Shown here: one piece after another, positions 25,598 through 60,130 of the stretch
Layout: every line of letters begins with the position of its first letter
Position numbering within the stretch: the first letter of the stretch is position 1
Assembly: GCF_009914755.1 (NCBI RefSeq)
Contig: NC_060929.1
DNA length: 64,000 nucleotides
Source of the DNA: the human T2T-CHM13v2.0 reference genome, Homo sapiens
Strand: one strand, 5' to 3'
Program-made: the position numbers and the translations under genes
Notes under the pieces: generated by a model
Databases searched by the model: none
What the model was told of the DNA's origin: nothing
Seen by the model: only the letters and a program-made list of their open reading frames with translations

Positions 25598-28505
<2,908 letters not shown>

Positions 28506-28521
28506 TCACCAGAAGACAGTC

Positions 28522-30595
28522 ATGGTGCCGCAGCAGGCTGCAGACACAAGGGAAGACTAACTAACCTCCTGAGCTGCCTCTGCCTGTCTAAATGAGCATC
28601 TGAGTCCAGTACCAAGGAGTTGAAGAAGGCTTTTTTGTGGGCAACGTCGTGGAGAACCTAGATGAGAAACCCTGAGCACCGGCTAGAGGTGAGTCCACTA
28701 TTTCTCCAAAGTCAGAAAAGCACACTTCTTCTAAATGCACAAAAGATCTGTTTGTAAATCAATGATTAAAGAAGATATGTAGAGAGATGCCCTAGTTCAC
28801 GTCTGCTGAGAGACCAGGTTGTTGAGAAGGACCCAGTGAAACTTCCTCAGGCTGCAGTAGAAATACTCGCTATATACATAATTATCTGGCTTCCCAGTGG
28901 AAGAAATAATAATGCCCTTTCTGGGGACATTATTTTCACATGCAGAATGTGCATGATTGTTAAGAGACATCAATTATCTACAAAGCTACTTACCCACTTG
29001 TGATATTTTTTCTTCTCAACATGCAGACTAAAGCCAGCCTGAACTGATTTTGAAAAATCTACTAAGCCTCATGTAAGGAATAGAGCATCACTACTGGTGA
29101 TGCTACCAACCTTGAAGAGGTTGGGGAAACAGGAAGATAGCAGTCCACCTTTTAAACATCATTAACAAGAAGTCTGTATGTAAGTGCTGGCATTAGGAGG
29201 AAGCCAAGAACAGTGTAGACAGTGGAGCTCAGAAAGCAGGCCACAGACCCTGATGATAGTTTTGTTGTAGTCTCAGCAATGCACCAAGATGTAACAGTCT
29301 CTCCTTGTCTGAGATAACACCCAGAGTTCTTTGTCCTACCTCCAAGAAGACACAAAGGTGAGGTTGGAGCGAAAGTTTAATAAGCGAAACAAGAAAGTTC
29401 TCTGTCAGCAGAGAGGCGGGCCTAAACAGGGTGCCCCGTGTGAGGCTGGGGTCCAGGGTTTTCAGGGGCTGGGAAGAGGAAGGAATGTGCTTAGTCCCTG
29501 GGCTGTCTGGAGAACATGTGACTCAGCTTGACCTGACATCAACCAGAAAGGTTTGCCCGGGACCTTGGGTTGGGAACAATCAGGGGCTGAAGTGATGATT
29601 CATAGAGCCCAGACTTACAGTCCAAAAAAGAAAGAAAAGTGCCCACCGGAACCCACTAGAGCCCACTGTGCCCCTGCCCACAAAAGGAGAAGAAACTTTT
29701 TCCTGGGAGCCTGCTGACTATACAAAGGACAAAGGCATTTCTATGCCAGGCCTTGTTCCCTTATCTGAGTGGGCCGGAGGTTTATGTACGTTTTTATTTC
29801 TATGCCAGGCCTTGTTCCCTTATCTGAGTGGGCCGGAGGTCTATGCAAGTTTTTATCCAAATGGGCCGGAGGTTTTTCTATCTGTGCAGCTGTGGGCCTG
29901 TCTCCAGGCACAACACCCTGTGCTAGTTCCTTATCAGTGCCTGCAGCTTGAATTTTTTTCCCAGGCTCCTTTTTATGTTATGTGGGGATGAGACACTGAC
30001 CCATGGGCTGGGGGCTCTCCAGGGACCCTTGCCTTGCTCTCTACCTAAGGCAAGCTAACTAACTCCTTTCAGTTTCAACACTGAAATAATTTGCTTTCTA
30101 AAATGAATCTCAGGGAAGACTTCTGGCCTATTTCACATGAATAAATGAATCTCAGAGATGTCTGGCCTATTTCACATGAATCTAGAGAGATCAGAGAGCG
30201 TAGAGAATTATAGACTTTGAAAACAGGGATTTTAAAGTTAAGGAGCTGCTCAAGTTGGAAGTGCAGGCCCTGGACAGAGGGATACTTTCTGGTCTTGAGC
30301 AAAAATCTCCAGTAGTTTCAGTCACACAACAACTTCCTGGAAATAATTATCACCCTCCTTAGAGGTCTGAGCCAGAAGAAAGAGAATCTACATTTCTTCT
30401 GAGTTCAGCAAGAAGATCATGAAGAAAATGAGCAGCTTTGATACTCCATTGCCAGATATGATCCTTCTGAGATATCACATATACTTAACTACTACAGCTT
30501 AGCATCCAGTGAATGCTAGGACACAGAAAGAATTTCTAACTACGATGTCTTTCAGCAATGCAAGATGCAGACCCTTTGGCCTTGACAATAGACCA
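28522..30595 (+). pseudogene. Relic protocadherin variable exon A (EC1-EC4), split by an LTR
   Basis: By-eye peptides EEGFFVGNVVENLD, AVEILAI, DINYLQSY, QPELILK, ATDPDD/SFNTEI (across LTR), IDFEN, LEVQALDRGILSG, NNFLEIIIT, NYYSLASSEC*DTERISNYDV in colinear cadherin order; stops and frameshifts. Confidence 0.85.
29263..30071 (-). mobile_element. ERV1 solo LTR (MER50-like)
   Basis: TG...CA termini, 4-bp TSD GTTT (29259-29262/30072-30075), internal ~45-bp tandem duplication. Confidence 0.8.
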
Positions 30596-32210: not shown

Positions 32211-33046
32211 TAAATGAACTACGTTTTGGGGTTGGGGGTTTTTCTTTGTTTTGGAGGGGTTTTGACAGTGTACATATACATACATATGGTATATAGTTCA
32301 ATAAAATTACTTTTCTTCTGTTTCATTCCTTAGTCACACCCCATACGTAGTTATCATTAAAATTTACTGATGAACAGTACCAAATTTAGAAGACTCTAGC
32401 ACTGTAAAGGCATGGGAAGGTATTATGGACCCCAAGGTAAACTTCAAGAAAGGGTTGTCCCTAACATGACTCATTGTGGAGCAAAAGCACTAAGTTCTGT
32501 CTAGTTCTATCTGAGAGTAGATGACTTTTACCCACAAGTATTATTAGCAAATAGGGAACAAAAGCTTCTCTTAGCTTTGTCACTTTCTGTTCCCCAGGAA
32601 GGTTTCTGGCTGATGGAGGCAGAAAGGACAGTGAGTGACCCAAAATGAATCAACAACCTCTAAATGGGCCGATAGAACACCCTTGAGTCCTACCCAGGCC
32701 AGGACCCAGAGACTGGAAGCTAAGAACTGTTATCAGCCACATGGGTCTTCATCAAAGCAGAGGTGCACAGCTCCTTCCTCGAACTAAAGCCCAGCTCGTT
32801 TGAGGGGGAGAACGGAAGCTGGCGCAGGAAGGCTGTGTGGATTCCCCAAGGCCTGATGATACTCTAGATCATCCCTAACCATATAGGCAGAGTGCAGAAT
32901 ATAATCCCACTTTGAAAATGGATAACACTATATTAAGGGTATTGTTTCTTGGGAAAATCCACAATGCTTACTCTGAAACTTTTAACTCAAGAATGTCAAA
33001 GCCACACTGGTATGCAGGTACCTTCTCCTCTTAAAAATATAGATGA

Positions 33047-33816
<770 letters not shown>

Positions 33817-34258
33817 TCATTCATACCTATCTTCACAAAATATGGTCAATTCTGGGTTTGGGGGGCTGATATTTGAGATTATATATAGAACTAAATTGTT
33901 TCACTCACGACATAGAATCATCCAAACTGCATGTACACACAAATGGCTTTATGCAAAGGCCCTGACAGAACGATATTTAGTTTTTCAGATTAGGTACATA
34001 GGGCCAACCAGCCCACCCTGTACATTCCAGCAAGTGCAAGAGCAGCAACTTTCCTATTTCAATACAATTATGGGCAGAAATTATATGATGTAAAATAGAG
34101 GCCCTTCCATAAAGTTAAGATTTAGGGTAGAAGAAGGGAAGATAAAACCAAAATTCCCATGAAGTCAAAATTAGACAGTGGTCTTGTACTCTGCTGAACC
34201 CTGTGATGAACTGTAGTCCTCAAACTCATGGACTCGGATCCAGGTTCACCAAGACACT

Positions 34259-35164
34259 TCAGTATGCTTCCAACTGTTTCATCATCATCTTCCTGCTGTA
34301 TTCGTAGGCCACAAACAGTGCCCCATTGGCAGGGATTGCTCGAATCATAGTAGCTTTCAGTCCAGAATATAAGGCTACTATTCCTTCATTTCTCACAACA
34401 CTTAAGAGGGTACCAATAAATCCTGCCTGTTTCCCATACATGGAAAGAACTTGAATTCTGGATTTAATACAATCCACTGGGAACACGACAAGCCACAGGC
34501 AAATTCCAGCAACTCCACCACTTAACATCAAATGGACAGGGCCTAGTTCATCTTTTGATCTCCCTGACGCAAAAAACGATCGGCTCAGTTCATAGCCACC
34601 AAAGAAAAAGAAATAACCCGGTACTTCTTGAAGTAGAGTACTCGAGAGTCCATGGTAGAAGCCCAAGGGGCCATCCTTTTTAAGGATACCCTTCACGACA
34701 GACCAAATTGTATTATGGCTTTTTGCTATCTTCCCTGACATCTCCATTTCATACATGGTCTGTAGCCGGCACTTCACAAGCTCAGTGGGGCAGAGAGCCA
34801 GTGCAGCAAATGCAGAGGCGAAGGACCCCGCGGCTGCAGTCTGGAGATCACTCAGCTTTGCCTGCTTGTCCATTCCAGCCACTTTCCTGACAAACTGCTG
34901 GCAGAACCCGTAGCACATGAAGAGGACCGAGTTTTCGGCGACGTAGGCCATAAGTGCCGGGCCGGTGCCCTTGTAGAAGCCCCGGAGACCCACTTGGGCG
35001 TATGTCTTCAGGAAGCAGTCGGTGAGGCCCTTGTACAGGTCAGGGAACGTCTGCATCTTCACTTTTATTGTGTCGAAGGGCTGCCCAGTCAGTACACACG
35101 CTGTCCCCCCTGCGGCCCCCGCTGTGAGGTCGATGGCGGCTTGGATGCCAGGACCGGACTTCAT
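34259..35164 (-). CDS. SLC25A2: Mitochondrial ornithine transporter 2 (ORNT2/ORC2), intronless retrogene of SLC25A15
   Basis: 301-aa uninterrupted [19 protein letters not shown]...KQLEAY with three mitochondrial-carrier PX[DE]XX[KR] motifs (PFDTIK, PTELVK, PVDCIK); no introns; CpG-rich 5' end. Confidence 0.98.
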
Positions 35165-35810
35165 GTTCGCTCACTCGTCTGAGGGTCCCAGTGGAAGGCG
35201 ACTAACTCCCCAGAGCGTGAGACCGGCTTTTCACGTCCAGCCGCAGCGAGCGCGGGGAATGGAGTTGGGGGTGGTGGGGTGGCTCTACCGCCTGTTCTGG
35301 GCTCTCACCCCAGTGCGGGGGAAGCCGCTCAACCCTACGCTCCGCCGCGGGCCGCCCCCTCCCCGCGCACTAAAATAACCCCCTGCTGCCGGCCCAGCGC
35401 GCGGCTCACTAGCGTTCCTGCGGCTCCTGGCGCACTGGCCGGGCCCCCAGCCGCCTCCAGCCTGGAGCCGCCATCCCTGCACCCGCAGGCGGGGGACGCG
35501 GACCGAATAAATACTTTTAGTGTACTGCGACTGGGCGCGGTGGCTCACTCCTGTATCCCAGCACTTTGGGAGGCCGAGGCGGGAGGATCGCTTGAGCCCA
35601 GGAGATCGAGACCAGCCTGGGCAATATGGCAAGACTCCATTTCTACAAAAACGAAAAAATACCCGGGCGCGATGGCGCGCGCCTGTGGTCCCAGCAATTC
35701 AGGAGAATGAAGCGAGGATCGCTTGAACCCGGGAGGTCGATGCTGCAGTGAGCTATGATCGCACACTGCACTCCAGGGTGGGCGAAAGGGTGAGGCTCTG
35801 TCTCAAAACA
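34860..35810. promoter_or_regulatory. CpG island over SLC25A2 5' end/promoter
   Basis: Dense CpG and high GC from the 5' CDS through 35520, continuing into a CpG-retaining Alu. Confidence 0.85.
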
Positions 35811-36520
35811 AAACCAAAACCAAGAAAACATGTAAAGCTTTTCGATAAATTCTTGCAATTATGGCCGGGAACTCTAGACGCCGCAGTTCAGCTGGCGGCA
35901 AAAGAAATGCTGTCCTAATCAGTCAGCCCTGCTTCTTTTCTTTTCTCTCTTTTTTTTTTTTTTTTTTTTTTTTTGACTTAGGGTCTCACTCGGCCGCCTA
36001 AGCTGGAGTTCAGTGGCGCGATCCTGGCTCACTGCAGCCCCAATCTCCTGGCCTCAGGCGATCCTCTCACCTCAGCCTCCTGAGTAGCTGAGACTAGAGG
36101 GACTACAGGCGCAAGCCACCACATCTGGCTAAATTTTGTATTGTACAGACGGGGTTTCGCCATGTTGCCCAGGCTAGTCTCGAACTCCTGAACTCAAGCA
36201 ATCCACCCACTGGCCTCCCAAAGTGTTGGGGCTTACAAGCATGAACCACCACACCCGGCCTATCCCACGCTTCTTACCATGCAAAAAACAAAAACAAACA
36301 ACCCGAAAAGAAGATGCCCTCACTTGAATAGACCCTGAATTCAGAGGGTCAATCTACAAGAAAACTGCTTTAAAGTAGATAAGACAGGCCAGGTGTGGTG
36401 GCTCATGCCTGTAATCCCAACACTTGGAGAGGCTGCGGAGGGAGGCTCATTTGAGCCTAGGAGTTCAAGGCTAGCTTGGGCAGCAAAATGAGACACCCCT
36501 TACCCCCTACAAAAAATAAA
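35529..36520. mobile_element. Alu(+) 35529-35828, Alu(-) 35934-36260, Alu monomer(+) 36387-36520
   Basis: Consensus matches; first two are tail-to-tail around the CSE. Confidence 0.9.
35854..35896 (+). promoter_or_regulatory. CSE/CTCF-like element upstream of (divergent from) SLC25A2
   Basis: TGCAAT at 35854, then AACTCTAGACGCCGCAGTTCAGC; box (CGCA) at 35882 with 28 bp spacing; ~200 bp from the relic exon once 2 Alus and MER41 are removed. Confidence 0.68.
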
Positions 36521-36535
36521 GTAGAGAAGACAAAC

Positions 36536-37170
36536 TGTCAGAGGCGCTGGAACCACAGCAACTCCATCTTGACTAGGGACTGAGTAAAATAAGGCCGAGA
36601 CCTACTGGACTGCATTCCCAGGAAGACAGGCATTCTAAGTCACAGGATGAGATAGGAGGCCGGCACAAGATACGGGTCACAAAGACCTTGCTGATAAAAC
36701 AGGTTTCAGTAAAGAAGCCAGCCAAATCCCACCAGAATCAAGATGGCATAATAAGTGACCTCTGGTCGTCCTTACTGCTCATTATACGCCAATTATAATG
36801 CATTAGCATGCTAAAAGACACGCCCACCAGCGCCGTGTCCACTTACAGATGCCATGGCAACAATAAGAAGTGACCCTATGTGGTCTAAAAAGGGGGAGGA
36901 ATCCTCAGTTCCGGTAACTTTGGACCCCTTTCCCAGAAACCTCATGAATAATCCACCCCTTGTTTAGCTTACATTCAATAAAAAACTGTAAGTATCCTTA
37001 GTCAAGCCGCCCAGGCCACTGCTGTGCCTATGGAGTAGCCATTCTTTTGCTTCTTTACTTCTCTAATAAACTTGCTTTCACTTGACTCTATGAACTTGCC
37101 CCAAATTATTTCTTGCATGAGATCCAAGAACAATCTCTTGGGTCTGGATCGGGACCCCTGTCCGGTAACG
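36536..37170 (+). mobile_element. MER41 (B-like) ERV1 solo LTR
   Basis: TGTCAGAGGCGCTGGAACCACAGCAACTCCATCTTG start, 635 bp, TSD AAAC, AATAAA near the 3' end. Confidence 0.88.
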
Positions 37171-37201
37171 AAACGATCTGAGGGTTGCTACATGAGAGAC
37201 A

Positions 37202-38730
37202 GTGACTGCTTTTGATCAGAAAACCCTCAGCGATCTGCCCATGCTCCTCACTTTCCTGGGGGGCAAGGAGGGGAGTAGGGCACTGTGGGAATCCTTAGCC
37301 CTGGAGATGTGCTACTGCTTTCCTGCAGAGCTGGAGAAATGCTATCACATGGCAACATCCCCAAGGATCTGGGGTTGCAGCCCTGGGAACTGGTGGAACG
37401 TGGAGTCCTTATCATTTCTGAAGATAGAACACGGCACTATAAAATCAACTTGGAAAATGGATAGTATTTATATACTGCATTGCTAAGAAACTTGATAGAA
37501 AAGAGCTGGGTGGCTCAGCACTATGCTTTCTAAGTTTTGAGATTCTCTTTGAGGACCCACACAGCCTCATGCAGAAGTAGAAATTTGTCGTTTGTACACT
37601 GTTGGTGGGAATGTAAAATAGTTCAACCCCTATGGAAAGCAGTATGGAGATTTCTCAAAGAACTAAAATTGAACACCCATTCAACCCAGCAATCCCACTA
37701 TTAGGTATCTACCCAAAGGAAAAGAAATCATTTTATCAAAAAGACACCTGTGCTGGGGACAGTGACTTACACCTGTAATCCCAGAATTTTGGGAGCCCAA
37801 GCCAGGTAGATCGCTTGAGCCCAGGAGCTCCAGACCAGCCTGGACAACATGGCAAAATGCCATCTCTACAAAAAAATACAAAAAGTAGCCATGCATGATG
37901 GCATGCCCCTGTAGTGGCAGCTACACAGGAGGCGGAGATGGGAGGATTGACTGAGCTGAGTTGGAGGCTGCAGTGAGTTATGATCCAGCCTGGGTGGCAA
38001 AACAAGACCCTGTCTCCAAAAAAAAAACCAGAAAACATCTACACTCATATGTTTATGGAAGCACTATTCACAACAGGAAAGTCACAGAATCAATGTAAGT
38101 GTTCATCAATAGTTGATTGGATAAAGAAAATGTGGTATATGTATACCACGGAATACTATGCAGCCATAAAAAAGAATGAAATTATGTCCCTCACAACATG
38201 GATGGAGCTGGGGGCTGTTATTCTAGGTGAAATATCTTAGAACCAGAAAATCAAATACTGCATGTTCTCACTTATATAAGTGGGAGCTAAACAATGGGTA
38301 CACAAAGACATAAAGATGGGAATAACAGACACTGGGGAATCCAAAAGTGGGGAGGGTGGGAGGGATTGAGGGTTGAAAACCTACCTGTTGGGTACTACAT
38401 TCACTATGTGGGTGACGGGTTCACTAGAAGCCCAAACCTCAGCGTTACACAACATACCCATGTAACACACCTGCACATGTACTCCTTGAATCTAAAATGA
38501 AATTCAATTTAAAAAGAAGTAGAAGTTCGGGATACAAATGACATGTCTAGCTTTCAAAGCAAGATGTTTTTTGGACATTAGTGAGGATACCACTGTCAGG
38601 ACACACTTCTTCCTCCCAGATATTTATAATCCCAGCATTGGAATGAATTCTCTCCAGGCTTACATTCCAAGCCGTCGTCGGCCATGGGTAGTAAAAACAA
38701 AATCTGGGGGGAAGAAAGTATGCTGAAAGC
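37202..38730 (+). pseudogene. Relic gamma-A-type protocadherin exon B (signal, EC1, part of EC2), split by L1
   Basis: ALWESLALEMCYCFPAELEK, GNIPKDLGLQPWELVERGVLIIS, LDRKEL..LCFLSFEILFED, EVEVRDTND, LDISEDTT, IGMNSLQAY versus PCDHGA1 [23 protein letters not shown] and VGMNSLQSY. Confidence 0.92.
37588..38514 (+). mobile_element. L1 (L1MA/L1PB-like) 3' end with nested Alu (~37752-38030)
   Basis: ORF2-end/3'UTR sequence; TSD AGAAGTAGAA 37573-37582/38515-38524. Confidence 0.85.
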
Positions 38731-43629: not shown

Positions 43630-43713
43630 GTCTGGTACTGACTTGGAATGCATGCACTTGGAAAGTCAATACTGGACTATAATTGTTTTATTTTCAATTT
43701 TATCTCATGTTAG

Positions 43714-43756
43714 TACAGTACCTTACTTTGTATTCTGAATTTAGCTGCTCATTTAT
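43714..43756 (+). promoter_or_regulatory. Decayed CSE remnant
   Basis: TACAGT at 43714, TATTCTGAATTTAGCTGCTCATTTA with box (AGCT) at 43743; 29 bp spacing; 240 bp upstream of relic ATG. Confidence 0.4.
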
Positions 43757-43982
43757 GAAGGAGAGAAAAGAGAGACATCTAACCTTTCCCCTTTTGCTCT
43801 TCTATAAGGAGATACAATATAGAAACTGCATATGGCAACAGAAAGAACAGGATTTTTAAAAATGAATATGCTACATTAACCATTTGCCTGCTATTAATGG
43901 GAGTCAATGTACTAGCTACTATAAGAAAAAGAAACTGAAGCACAGATGTTAGAGAAATTTGAGGAATTAGAAGTACTAGAAA

Positions 43983-45530
<1,548 letters not shown>

Positions 45531-51347: not shown

Positions 51348-51605
51348 CTTTATTTCCTTGTGATTCACTTCTCCAATAAATGCTGGTTACACTAAAAAGT
51401 TCCAGCTACTGCAATAGTTTAAAACACCAGTTTGCTATGAATTGAAATCTTTTAATTACAAGAAGTTCTCTGTAGATCAGCAGCTAAGCGTCTATTTTGC
51501 CTTAGTTTTTATTTAAGCTCCAAGTCTTTTCTCTAAATATGCTGTGACCGAATACCAGTCGTTAACACAAAGGCTGATTCACAGACTTAAGTTCATTAAA
51601 TCAGA

Positions 51606-51649
51606 TGCAATGCCAAGTCCCAACCTCTAGGTGCCGCTGCCGGACAACG
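51606..51649 (+). promoter_or_regulatory. CSE/CTCF-like element inside the TAF7 5' leader
   Basis: TGCAAT at 51606, then ACCTCTAGGTGCCGCTGCCGGACAACG; CGCT at 51635 is 29 bp from TGCA versus 28 bp in PCDHGA1. Confidence 0.72.
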
Positions 51650-52445
51650 CGGAGAGAGCTAGCTAGCTAGCTAGGGAACAGGAAAGCAAATGGCGGCTCC
51701 CCCGGAACGGTTTTCGGCCCAGAAAGCCCAGCAGAGATACTTTCAACTCACAAACTCTCCCGGAACAAAGACACTCAAAAAATCAGGGCTCAGCGAGCTC
51801 TCTTCGCCTCGGGTACTTACAATCCAGTGACGATTATAAGTTCAGTTTCACCGGGCCGGAGCGAAGGGAAGAGGAGGCCGCAAGGAGCCAAGCGGGAGAG
51901 AGCCGAGCGTCTCCTTGTCGTTTCCTTAATTCTTCCTGCCGCTTGGCAGAGTGATCCACTACCGATTACTGATGAAAGGGCCCGGGATGGGCAGCGCGAA
52001 ATCTTGCCGAGAGGCGCAGCTCGCATCACCAGACCCCGCACCTCGCCGGCCCTCCGTCCGGGTCGCCTACCCAGCAAAAACGGAAGTGCTACGTCGCGAC
52101 GCGGGGCGGGAGGCGGCTGTGAGTGACAGCCCCTCCGGGCGGAAGGGCGGAGCCCCAGCTAGCGCAGGCGCAATAGCGCAATTACGCTGCCCAGCGTGAA
52201 ACTCATCTTTTCGCGAGAACTTGTTTTTCCGGGATGGAAATGACAGTGTTTCGGAAGAGCTGTTGGTTTCAAACTATTTAGAGCTTGGAAGTTCCAAGAA
52301 AGACACAGATTCGTCCCCCGCTAAGCCAGCACTTTTACGGGATCGCTGTGGGGCCGGATGGCTTCTAGACTTCCGGGTGATTCCGGGAGATGGGGGACGC
52401 CTTGCAGTAAGCGTCTTTGCTTCTGGAAACATCTCGGATGTTCCC
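51630..52445. promoter_or_regulatory. TAF7 CpG-island promoter
   Basis: CpG-dense; ETS CGGAAGTG at 52081, GC boxes ~52103 and ~52145, CGCG-element-like TTTCGCGAGA 52209-52218, YY1-like AAATGGCGGC ~51688. Confidence 0.85.
51890..52290 (+). pseudogene. Relic gamma-B-type exon D (signal plus EC1) underlying the TAF7 promoter CpG island
   Basis: Hydrophobic LLVVSLILPAAW, then with frameshifts IHY(S)ITDERARDGQR(G)NLAE (cf. IRYSIPEELAKGSVVGNLAK), VRV..DA.., RDGNDSV..NYLEL; IHY-to-DxND distance 279 nt versus 282 nt in PCDHGA1; CSE upstream. Confidence 0.6.
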
Positions 52446-57279: not shown

Positions 57280-57467
57280 TTAAGAATTTTAATAAAACGT
57301 TAGAACTAAATTTTGTGAAATGATCATTTTGCTAATATTTTATCAAAAACAATGATTTGTACCCTTCTTAGTAAAGCAGCTGGTATTTTAAAATATGTCT
57401 CGAGAAAAAAGCCAATACAGTCTCTTTTGAGGACCTTGAAAACTAACCTGCTAGGGATATCATACTA

Positions 57468-57495
57468 GGCCTCTGGGTGCCGCTGTCCGCCAATC
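57468..57495 (+). promoter_or_regulatory. Orphan CSE/CTCF element of a gamma-B relic exon
   Basis: GGCCTCTGGGTGCCGCTGTCCGCCAATC aligns with the PCDHGA1 CSE; ~300 bp upstream of the relic signal-peptide remnant. Confidence 0.8.
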
Positions 57496-57759
57496 CGTGG
57501 CTGGAGGGAAACAAAGCAATCCACTGACGCAGCAGTCCCCGCAGGCTTTTGAGACACACATTAGGAGAGGACTCTGCCCGCTGTCTGTCTCACAATCTGC
57601 TCGAAATATCTTGGTCAGGAATCTCAGGATGTCTAGTGACCCCGAGTGAGGTGCTGCCGTTTATTCCTGAGCATCTTTGGAAGCAGGAAGCAGGGAGCAA
57701 CGGTAGCGAGAGGTATTCGGATCTGAGTATCAGCAGGAAGAAGAAACAGAGGAAGAAGT

Positions 57760-60130
57760 CCCCCATAAGGAAGGCGTGAGGAGCGCAGGAAGCGCTGTTT
57801 CCCTGCCTGAGATCTTTATTCTACTAGGTCTTTATTCTACGTAGCCGATACGCTGTAAAATTCTGGAAGAGAAGGCTAGGGGTTTAAGGTTGGTAATCTC
57901 TCAGAAGATCTGCGTCTCGGTGACGGAAAGAACTAAGGGTAAGTGCTGAGAAGCCTCTCTTTACAGCCAGAGAACGAGCCAGAGCCGAGCTTGAGAATGA
58001 CGGGATAGATCTAGCAGTTATGCCCAAGGAAGACCCTCGGCCCTTTGAATTTGAAGGCACTGAAAATCGTATAAATGTTTTCATATAAACGTATGCATCT
58101 TTGATATAAATAACAAAATGGCTTTTAGCACAAATTTTGTTTTGGAAATTTTGAAAAACGTCTTAATAAGAGGAATGTTTACTCTTAAGTCTGCAGTAGA
58201 TTTTGAACACCGGCAGTAACTGTACAAATATATCAGATTAGTTTTAATAGCCATCTCCCCTTCCCCTACAAGTAAAGGAGAGTACTACAGCAGTATGTAC
58301 TCTGAATTGCTGCTATTGAAGAACCCCTGAGCCTGTGCAGCGTGGCACTCCTGTGGTCCCCATTACTCAGGAGGCTGAGGCAGGAGGATTGCTTGATGCC
58401 AGCTAGAGGCTGCAGTGCACTATGAGAACACCTGTGAATAGCCACTGCATTCCAGCCTGAGTAACATGGCCAGACCCCATCTCTTAAGAAAAGAAAAGAA
58501 ACCCTGAACCAGAGGAGCAGAGCTGCCACCACTTAGTGGTGGGGATGGGGCAGAACAGCTCAGGGCAAGACACAGGCCTTGGATGCCAATGCCAGCCGTC
58601 AGATATTGAGCAATGTGTAAGTGGGGTTAGCCTGCATGAGAACCTGCTCGCCACCTCCTCCTCTTCATTCTTTAGGTGATCCCCATTGACCTAGACAATA
58701 TCTTTAATATAGAGTTCTCCTGATTTTTCTACACAATTTTACAGGGCATACAGAATATATTTCCTGTCCAATAATGACAGAAATACTTGATTTTGAAGAG
58801 TAACAGTTATAGCTTGGAATAGAAGACTGGAGGCAGTTTGAGGGCCGACTTCAGAGTCCTGGTTGAAATGAAGGTTGAGAAGTATAATGCAGTCAGTGCA
58901 GGTGACTTTCAGCTGGGTATCTAGTCCTATCAGAGGTAAAAACTGTGGTTGCCCTAACCAAAACAATAGGACTAAGAGACCTTAAATGAAAGATGAAAGT
59001 TATTATAGAGAGAAATGATCATACTGGCAAACAATTCACCTCCAAGAATTATGATGTGACTCTTTGTCAGATACTCACAGATGGAATTCTAAACTGGTAG
59101 CAGACCCTGAAGGACAATGTCACCATCAGAACCACCAACAAGGACAAACTGTCCCTCTCCTGCATCACCCTGCATACCATCTGCATCCACAAAAATGCTC
59201 ATTCTTCAACAAGCCTCCTATTTCTTTTGGGTGACTGGGAACACTGCCCAGCACCTCCATCACATGCTTTAGCGCTTCCCACCCTAACTTAGGGTCCCAT
59301 ATGCCTCCTGTTTCTTCTTGACCAGTGACCTGCCACTGTGGGCACTGTCATTCTACATGTCAGTGAGTGCAGAGTGCTATGGTTACCATGCAGACTATCT
59401 TTGAGCTGACTCTGCAGGCCAGTGACCAGGGTTCAACTTGCTCAGTGTCATCCTGAACCTGCATGTGATGGTGGATGACCATTGCAAAAATGCAAGGACA
59501 CTATGCCAGGAGTTGCAGCCAAGTGGGGCCCACTTTGATGCTGCACCACTCACAATGCAACCCAGCTATCCCATCACCAAAGTGGACACCAGCTGGGGCA
59601 TAAAGGCTGACTGTCCTATCATGTGCTTCAGGCCAGCTAATGTGGCTCTTCAAACTAGGGATGTGCACGAGCTAGATGCGTGCCGTGTCACTGTGGGTAA
59701 CAGAGATGCAACCTGCCAAGGTTTGTTGGTCACCGTGGTCAATGGTGAATCATCACGCTGAAACATCACCTGGTTGCTGCTCATAGTTTGCAGGAGTTGC
59801 TACCAGACCTCAGCAATCGCCCAGCACCCAACAGCAGGCAGCAGACAGCACCCAACAGCTGGCGATGGCCGTTGCCTTGATCTCCATGCTGTTTCTCCTC
59901 AGTGTGACTCTGGCCATCTCTCTGAACCTGCAATGCCCCCTATAGCTCCATTGCCTGGGGCTGTTTTCAGCTGGATCTCTGGTCCAAGCCCGGATATGGA
60001 GTTGTCTCCAACTTAAAGAAAGGAAATTTGCCCTGTTCCTACAACGTATGTGTGGTTTTAGATATTTTTAAAATCTTAATTTCTTTAACTCAAGAAACAG
60101 CTTTGAACCAGGTATTCTCTGCAGTGCCAG
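57760..60130 (+). pseudogene. Near-full-length relic gamma-B-type protocadherin exon E
   Basis: ALFPCLRSLFY, PIRCKILEEKARG, VGNLSEDL, LRVSAEK, FHINVCIFDINN, EEQSCHHLV, FELTLQASDQGS, LSYHVLQAS, GNRDATCQGLLVTV, SLQELLPDLSNRP, VALISMLFLLSVTLAISL (TM), AWGCFQ, GNLPCSYNVCV. Confidence 0.93.

What the first reader, a model, noticed from the sequence alone, without database searches (positions are those of the whole stretch)
35165..37300. SLC25A2 is head-to-head with an orphan Pcdh promoter separated from its exon by three insertions
Seen: CSE-like element at 35854-35896. Removing Alu (35934-36260), Alu monomer (36387-36520) and MER41 (36536-37170) leaves ~200 bp to the start of relic B, a normal CSE-to-exon distance. 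SLC25A2 starts ~700 bp to the left on the opposite strand. Inference: a second, independent retrogene survived next to a Pcdh promoter, suggesting these CTCF-protected units act as landing pads that let retrocopies be expressed.
Basis: partly seen in the sequence, partly recalled or inferred. Interest (0 to 1): 0.7.

Follow-up and report, generated by a model that had tools for sequence, protein, structure and literature searches.

The report
Retrogene brought its own promoter
The promoter motif of a dead protocadherin gene does sit back-to-back with the retrogene SLC25A2, but SLC25A2's annotated start site lies inside sequence copied from its parent gene, so it likely brought its own promoter rather than borrowing its neighbour's.

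Summary
Observation confirmed; interpretation only partly.

35854-35890 is a Pcdh-gamma-type CSE homologue: profile score 22.6, against a maximum of 2.4 in 234,760 unrelated positions. Its CGCT box reads CGCA. Removing the Alu, Alu monomer and LTR restores a normal spacing to a gamma-A relic exon (346 bp; 343-402 in 12 gamma-A genes).

SLC25A2 probably does not borrow it. Window 35165-35502 aligns with parent SLC25A15's CpG island and first exon, across the splice junction (73%), so the annotated TSS (35348) lies inside the retrocopy. SLC25A2's island is methylated in 6 of 6 normal tissues where Pcdh-gamma A/B promoters are unmethylated (PMC2776977), so it is not somatically protected. Retained CpGs in the flanking repeats point to germ-line hypomethylation.

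What survives: SLC25A2 (56 bp) and TAF7 (at most 260 bp) both inserted antisense just upstream of orphan gamma CSEs (rough post-hoc chance about 0.001). TAF7's TSS lies just inside a gamma-B relic exon; that is the better co-option candidate. CTCF binding and mouse conservation are untested.

The parts
32302..35502 (-). SLC25A15-derived retrocopy holding SLC25A2 (CDS 34259-35164). The 3' limit was not reached; it extends past the annotated 3' end (33934) and holds two later Alus
   Evidence: six parent exon blocks on contig C13 joined without introns; 3' UTR homology 77% and 69%, down to 32302
35165..35502 (-). Parent-derived 5' leader and GC-rich promoter; annotated TSS 35348; parent's exon 1/exon 2 junction at 35237/35236
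   Evidence: 227 of 309 columns identical; score 109 vs maximum 77 (200 shuffles) and 66 (176 real GC-rich windows); 131 with the spliced target
35533..35826 (+).
   Evidence: no clear target duplication
35854..35890 (+). Orphan Pcdh-gamma-type CSE homologue, forward; box reads CGCA; 3 CpGs kept
35934..36264 (-). Old Alu, keeps 7 of 21 CpG sites; imperfect 11-bp target duplication
36387..36516 (+). Alu-type monomer with 16-bp target duplication
36536..37170 (+).
37220..37584 (+). Gamma-A-type relic exon, first part (signal peptide and EC1), frameshifted, CpGs lost
37583..38514 (+). Insert splitting the relic exon, 10-bp target duplication, nested Alu; looks like an L1 3' end (recalled, not tested against a library)
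38515..38727 (+). Relic exon, second part (end of EC1, start of EC2)
51569..52008 (+). Comparison unit: gamma-B-type relic (CSE 51607-51643, signal peptide, EC1 start) lying antisense inside TAF7's annotated 5' UTR; TAF7 TSS 52087, ATG 51347
   Evidence: (E 9.5e-10); no hit in 182,532 control bases

Best explanation
SLC25A2's annotated start site lies inside DNA copied from its parent SLC25A15, so it likely runs on an inherited CpG-island promoter, and the protocadherin CSE beside it is likely a preserved bystander.

Shown: the CSE homologue, the gamma-A relic, the repeat insertions, and the parent-derived leader and upstream sequence across the parent's splice junction.

Inferred: (1) a long-5' SLC25A15 mRNA was retroposed antisense about 56 bp upstream of the CSE, before the human-mouse split; (2) the island is unmethylated in the germ line and methylated in most somatic cells; (3) that germ-line hypomethylation, not selection on the Pcdh unit, kept the CpGs of the CSE and nearby repeats; (4) primate repeats piled up between CSE and exon because the unit was already dead. 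CTCF would bind only where the site is unmethylated and would at most tune expression.
For: Parent alignment of 35199-35530 scores 109 vs maximum 77 in 200 shuffles and 66 in 176 real GC-rich windows. The 157 bp upstream of the TSS alone beat 178 of 178 GC-rich windows under 4 of 4 scoring schemes (the windows overlap, so they are not independent). A spliced target scores 131, an unspliced one 109.

SLC25A2 is scored M in 6 of 6 normal kidney and brain samples where the eight gamma-A/B promoters assayed are U (PMC2776977 Table S2). Mouse Slc25a2 is shown as a DNMT3B-dependent island (PMC13138329 legend).

The two old Alus keep 12 of 22 and 7 of 21 CpG sites; the 5 other equally old Alus among 53 keep 0-3 of 18-22. 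The LTR has 14 CpGs vs 1-9 in 17 other copies. The relic exon keeps 0-1 of 6-15 member CpGs. The CSE has two changes at near-invariant columns and its spacer shows no homology.
Against: Both retrogenes lie within 300 bp upstream of a CSE and antisense; rough chance 0.0002-0.001, or up to 0.004 ignoring strand (post hoc, n = 2). An inherited promoter does not explain that.

The CSE matches a recalled CTCF core consensus at 10 of 14 positions, as well as the best live promoters (7-10 of 14). The orphan CSE at 57453 keeps its CpGs with no retrogene beside it, so orphan sites can persist by another route. The methylation assay lies in the coding part of the island (34794-35046), 800 bp from the CSE. 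A review lists ORNT2 in liver, testis, spleen, lung, pancreas, gut, brain and kidney (PMC7764698), so expression is not strictly germ-line. The TSS is RefSeq's, not measured here; no call gave the parent's TSS.
Confidence: 0.62

Rival explanations
1. Landing pad with dependence: the inherited core promoter needs CTCF or its paralogue BORIS at the CSE, ancestrally 240 bp from the TSS, to stay unmethylated and active in germ cells. That would be why this retrocopy survived.
For: Insert end 56 bp from the CSE without the Alu. TAF7 shows the same arrangement. Rough chance of both about 0.001. CSE keeps 3 CpGs vs 0 in the two gamma-B pseudogene CSEs; CTCF core match 10 of 14.
Against: Promoter sequence is parent-derived. 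Island methylated in soma where real gamma CSE promoters are not. CGCT box changed. CpG density peaks over the retrocopy and falls across the CSE (o/e 0.94 at 35501-35700, 0.44 at 35901-36100), so the protection looks centred on SLC25A2. A 294-bp Alu between CSE and TSS was tolerated.
Confidence: 0.2
2. The CSE is kept as one more forward CTCF site in the Pcdh beta-gamma tandem array, for loop architecture, independently of SLC25A2.
For: Forward promoter CBS arrays act as insulators (PMC6881428). Three orphan CSEs (35854, 51607, 57453) keep 2-3 CpGs and core matches of 10-12 of 14 although their exons are decayed.
Against: Methylation of the box blocks CTCF (PMC6881428), and the neighbouring island is methylated in fetal brain. 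Two near-invariant columns have changed.
Confidence: 0.1
3. Insertion bias, not survival: open germ-line chromatin beside Pcdh promoters attracted the retrocopies; the CSE has no later role, and the antisense orientation reflects selection against sense poly(A) signals inside gamma transcription units.
For: Six insertions (retrocopy, two Alus, monomer, LTR, 932-bp insert) lie within about 1.8 kb of this CSE.
Against: Alus are dense across the whole window (26 near-full-length copies), so the pile-up is not clearly unusual. Dead retrocopies in the clusters were not surveyed.
Confidence: 0.08

Closest known systems
Clustered protocadherin promoter CSE (forward CTCF site with a CGCT box; PMC6881428)
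   Same: Gamma-type 37-bp profile including the upstream module, forward orientation, normal distance to a gamma-A exon once repeats are removed.
   Different: Box reads CGCA; exon is frameshifted and split; spacer decayed; binding untested.
Retrocopies with a promoter inherited from the parent (about 3% of expressed retrocopies, 6 human cases; Carelli et al., PMC4772013)
   Same: Sequence upstream of the TSS aligns to the parent's 5' end.
   Different: Old insertion (shared with mouse, PMC2764143) with only 73% identity left. SLC25A2 is not named in the paper's main text; its Table S4 could not be read, so it may already be listed there.
Retrocopies piggybacking head-to-head on a neighbour's bidirectional promoter (PMC4772013)
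   Same: Head-to-head, within 2 kb.
   Different: The neighbour is a dead unit, and SLC25A2's TSS is inside the insert. TAF7 fits co-option better, but it starts inside the relic exon and reads through the CSE (convergent rather than divergent).
Pcdh-alpha antisense transcription from within the variable exon (Canzio et al. 2019; only the title seen in a reference list; geometry recalled)
   Same: TAF7's annotated transcript starts about 450 bp downstream of a CSE and runs antisense through it.
   Different: The unit is gamma-B-like and dead, and the transcript codes for a TFIID subunit. It does not apply to SLC25A2.

Membership tests
Pcdh CSE | Profile match to gamma CSEs including the upstream module | tested here: met
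   22.6 bits; members 8.4-52.6 leave-one-out; background maximum 2.4
Pcdh CSE | CGCT box | tested here: not met
   Reads CGCA; T in 18 of 19 members, A in none. So it is a descendant of a CSE, not filed as a functional member
Pcdh CSE | Forward, about 200-270 bp upstream of a variable exon | tested here: met
   After removing three repeats: 346 vs 343-402 bp to the same codons
Pcdh CSE | Drives an intact variable exon | tested here: not met
   Frameshifts and a 932-bp insert
Pcdh CSE | Bound by CTCF in vivo when unmethylated | not testable with these tools
   No ChIP data; core matches a recalled consensus at 10 of 14
Retrogene with inherited promoter | Intronless copy joined across the parent's splice junctions | tested here: met
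   Six exon blocks plus the exon 1/exon 2 junction
Retrogene with inherited promoter | Sequence upstream of the TSS aligns to the parent | tested here: met
   157 bp upstream beat 178 of 178 controls in 4 of 4 schemes
Retrogene with inherited promoter | TSS fixed by CAGE | not testable with these tools
   RefSeq 5' end (35348) used
Head-to-head piggyback retrogene | Within 2 kb of a live protein-coding gene's promoter | tested here: not met
   Partner is a relic
Head-to-head piggyback retrogene | Co-regulated with the partner's promoter class | tested here: inconclusive
   Opposite methylation to gamma-A/B promoters in 6 of 6 normal samples, but assayed in the coding part of the island
MER41 solo LTR | LTR anatomy: TG start, poly(A) signal, 4-bp target duplication, dispersed copies | tested here: met
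   the last two bases read CG rather than CA
MER41 solo LTR | Tandem GAS-type motifs (feature recalled) | tested here: inconclusive
   Both motifs in 10 of 17 relatives, one in 5, none in 2; this copy keeps one
MER41 solo LTR | Match to the repeat-library entry | not testable with these tools
   No repeat library available

The most novel reading that the evidence does not exclude
The beta-gamma gap is a run of four or five dead Pcdh-gamma units, and two retrogenes survived by landing antisense just upstream of their CTCF elements. TAF7, an essential TFIID subunit, is transcribed from a fossil gamma-B promoter-exon read backwards through its CSE. SLC25A2's inherited promoter needs the gamma-A CSE (CTCF/BORIS) in germ cells. 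Dead protocadherin promoters would then be a source of new gene promoters, and their orphan CSEs uncounted forward CTCF sites in the Pcdh array.
Probability: 0.2. Interest if true: 0.65.

Novelty: new member of a known kind. Interest (0 to 1): 0.38.

Why it matters
It explains how SLC25A2 (ORNT2, the backup mitochondrial ornithine carrier) is likely expressed: a rare inherited promoter that is methylated in soma. It also adds up to three orphan forward CSE-like sites between the Pcdh beta and gamma clusters, which would matter for loop-extrusion models of promoter choice if CTCF binds them. The TAF7 case gives a direct test of whether Pcdh promoters carry antisense promoter activity that evolution can reuse.

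Tried and rejected
- Chance match of the CSE: rejected. The pattern was built from the two sites it found, so it is not an independent test.
- GC-richness as the cause of the parent alignment: rejected with shuffles, real GC-rich windows, the opposite strand (52) and the parent's intron island (55). The leader 35199-35348 alone was weak (38; 12 of 200 shuffles reached it).
- Relic B as beta or alpha type: weaker or no profile hits.
- Homology of the 217-bp spacer to gamma-A spacers: no hit.
- A CSE at the weak 43704-44035 hit: the offset I scored gave -77.8 and the scan found nothing there; unit unconfirmed.
- CSEs or relics in the 19.5 kb before the window: none. LOC100419552 was not identified.
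- Fixing the 5' end of the TAF7 insert against TAF7L: the held loci cover only residues 50-315. It is bounded only by the ATG (51347) and the relic match (51569).
- Order of relic death and SLC25A2 insertion: not resolvable from these identities.
- Papers not held: Wu et al. 2001, Guo et al. 2012, Yin et al. 2017, Canzio et al. 2019. No passage on these sites in PMC3333863, 10.1101/525543 or PMC4977153 (term searches).

Full report
1. The element. I located the clustered Pcdh variable exons in the genome and fetched 58 of their promoter regions. A 37-bp profile was trained on the 19 live gamma-A/B promoters (12 A, 7 B). It scores 35854-35890 at 22.6. Members score 8.4-52.6 leave-one-out and the two gamma-B pseudogenes 19.9 and 27.5. 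The highest score was 2.4 in 234,760 unrelated positions and 9.5 in 3 Mb of simulated sequence. The site is forward and keeps the upstream module. It departs at two near-invariant columns, one of which turns the CGCT box into CGCA. PMC6881428 (passages and supplement legends seen) defines the CSE as a forward CTCF site with a CGCT box whose methylation blocks binding. The site is therefore a descendant of a gamma CSE; whether it binds CTCF is untested.

2. The insertions and the relic. With 1123 bp removed, the box lies 346 bp from the relic's Gly-Asn-Ile codons, against 343-402 in 12 of 12 gamma-A genes, and the gamma-A profile then aligns in one piece from CSE to exon (96 bits). The spacer alone shows no homology. 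The relic is gamma-A-like, sister to the 12 gamma-A exons at 98/96 on a long branch (two short relic pieces were left out of the tree). It is frameshifted and split by a 932-bp insert.

3. Where SLC25A2's promoter comes from. The gene matches six exon blocks of SLC25A15 on contig C13. Its 5' region, 35165-35502, aligns colinearly with the parent's GC-rich island and first exon (L011 4864-5131, ending at a GT donor) and continues into exon 2 without the intron: 227 of 309 columns. The part 5' of exon 2 scores 109, against maxima of 77 in 200 shuffles and 66 in 176 real GC-rich windows. The 157 bp upstream of the annotated TSS beat all 178 control windows under four scoring schemes; the controls overlap each other. 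The leader downstream of the TSS is weak alone (12 of 200 shuffles reach it). So the annotated TSS and the GC-rich sequence above it lie inside the retrocopy. PMC4772013 (passages seen) describes this route for about 3% of expressed retrocopies. Its main text does not name SLC25A2 and its supplements could not be read.

4. Methylation. PMC2776977 (passages, Table S2 and primer rows seen) scores SLC25A2 methylated in 6 of 6 normal samples, including fetal brain, where TAF7 and the eight gamma-A/B promoters assayed are unmethylated. The primers map to 34794-35046, so the CSE itself was not assayed. PMC13138329 (passages) shows mouse Slc25a2 as a DNMT3B-dependent island. The sequence indicates the opposite state in the germ line. 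Among 53 near-full-length Alus, seven are old (13.9-19.9% non-CpG divergence): the two beside the CSE keep 12 of 22 and 7 of 21 CpG sites, the other five 0-3 (seven of the 53 come from duplicated loci). The LTR has 14 CpGs against 1-9 in 17 of the 19 other fetched copies (two were left out: an equal-scoring neighbour of another copy and a 5'-short copy). CpG density peaks over the retrocopy's 5' end and falls across the CSE, and the relic exon has lost nearly all its CpGs. Germ-line hypomethylation is an inference from CpG retention. Against a strictly germ-line gene, a review (PMC7764698, passages) lists ORNT2 in several somatic organs.

5. What remains of the landing-pad idea. The profiles show more dead gamma units: 28501-30546, a weak one at 43704-44035, 51569-52008 and 57420-60053. 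The same profiles found nothing in 182,532 control bases. Without the Alu, the SLC25A2 insert ends 56 bp upstream of its CSE. TAF7's ATG is 260 bp upstream of the CSE at 51607, and its annotated TSS (52087) is 79 bp beyond the last matched codons of the relic's EC1. A uniform-insertion estimate gives 0.0002-0.001 for both within 300 bp and antisense, or up to 0.004 ignoring strand. This is post hoc, n = 2, with a crude repeat mask, and antisense orientation may be selected for other reasons. Cause may also run backwards: CSEs beside hypomethylated islands stay recognisable. The site at 57453 persists without a retrogene. A 20-kb mouse transgene with Slc25a2 and Taf7 rescues Taf7 loss (PMC5179546, passages), so Taf7 does not need the distant cluster enhancers; a local CSE would be inside that fragment. 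Both genes are in human and mouse but not anole (PMC2764143, passages); Alu and MER41 are primate-specific (established knowledge). That TAF7 is a retrocopy of TAF7L is consistent (intronless match to several exons); PMC7010400 (passages) did not state it.

6. Mechanism. Most likely (0.62) SLC25A2 uses an inherited island promoter, active where unmethylated, and the CSE is a preserved bystander. Rivals: germ-line dependence on CTCF/BORIS at the CSE (0.2), an architectural role in the Pcdh array (0.1), insertion bias (0.08).

7. Print status. Ten searches were run; those aimed at this locus listed no paper describing these orphan CSEs, the inherited SLC25A2 promoter or the TAF7 relic. Most hits were seen only as listings. 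I recall that Wu et al. 2001 reports relic sequences in the Pcdh locus, but it is not held, so the relics may be in print. Term searches in 10.1101/525543, PMC3333863 and PMC4977153 found no mention of SLC25A2 or TAF7; one supplement was unreadable. Figures, where CTCF tracks would appear, are not held.

8. Verdict. Real and well-read anatomy; the headline mechanism is probably wrong for SLC25A2 and more promising for TAF7. New member of a known kind; interest 0.38.

Noticed in passing
window 51569-52087: TAF7's annotated 5' UTR is a gamma-B-type Pcdh promoter and exon start read antisense (E 9.5e-10). Its CSE at 51607-51643 has an intact CGCT box and the best CTCF core match of all sites (12 of 14), and abuts a RefSeq enhancer. 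Donor-like (about 51822) and acceptor-like (about 51393) signals on the minus strand would put the CSE in a 5' UTR intron.
   Followed up: partly
window 57420-60053: Long gamma-B relic with a well-kept CSE at 57453-57489 (26.1 bits, intact box) and no retrogene beside it; a RefSeq enhancer lies at 57629-57748.
   Followed up: partly
window 28501-30546: Older Pcdh relic: weak CSE-like site (7.7 bits), EC1 piece 28615-28711 and EC3-4 piece 30158-30546, with a repeat-like stretch between.
   Followed up: partly
window 43704-44035 and 45100-45332: Weak profile hits (E 3e-4, 2e-3) that may be a fifth, heavily decayed unit with no recognisable CSE.
   Followed up: no
window 36930-36938: The LTR keeps one of the two GAS-type motifs seen in its relatives; possible interferon-responsive element 1.6 kb from the SLC25A2 TSS (function recalled for MER41).
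   Followed up: no
window 35371-35378 (- strand): AT-rich TATA-like stretch 23-30 bp upstream of the SLC25A2 TSS where the parent has GC-rich sequence; may be a later addition to the inherited promoter.
   Followed up: no
window 32302-33934: SLC25A15 3' UTR homology runs at least 1.6 kb beyond SLC25A2's annotated end, so the retrogene uses an earlier poly(A) site than the copied mRNA.
   Followed up: no
L003-L009 (contigs C13, C14, C21, C22, C24): Seven partial, intron-containing copies of the last SLC25A15 exons, apparently segmental duplications.
   Followed up: no
window 1-61700: Every gamma unit upstream of PCDHGA1 is dead, and both retrogenes are transcribed antisense within this run; antisense collision with gamma pre-mRNAs might have helped kill upstream units (idea only; the relic at 57420 lies downstream of TAF7 and is dead too).
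   Followed up: no
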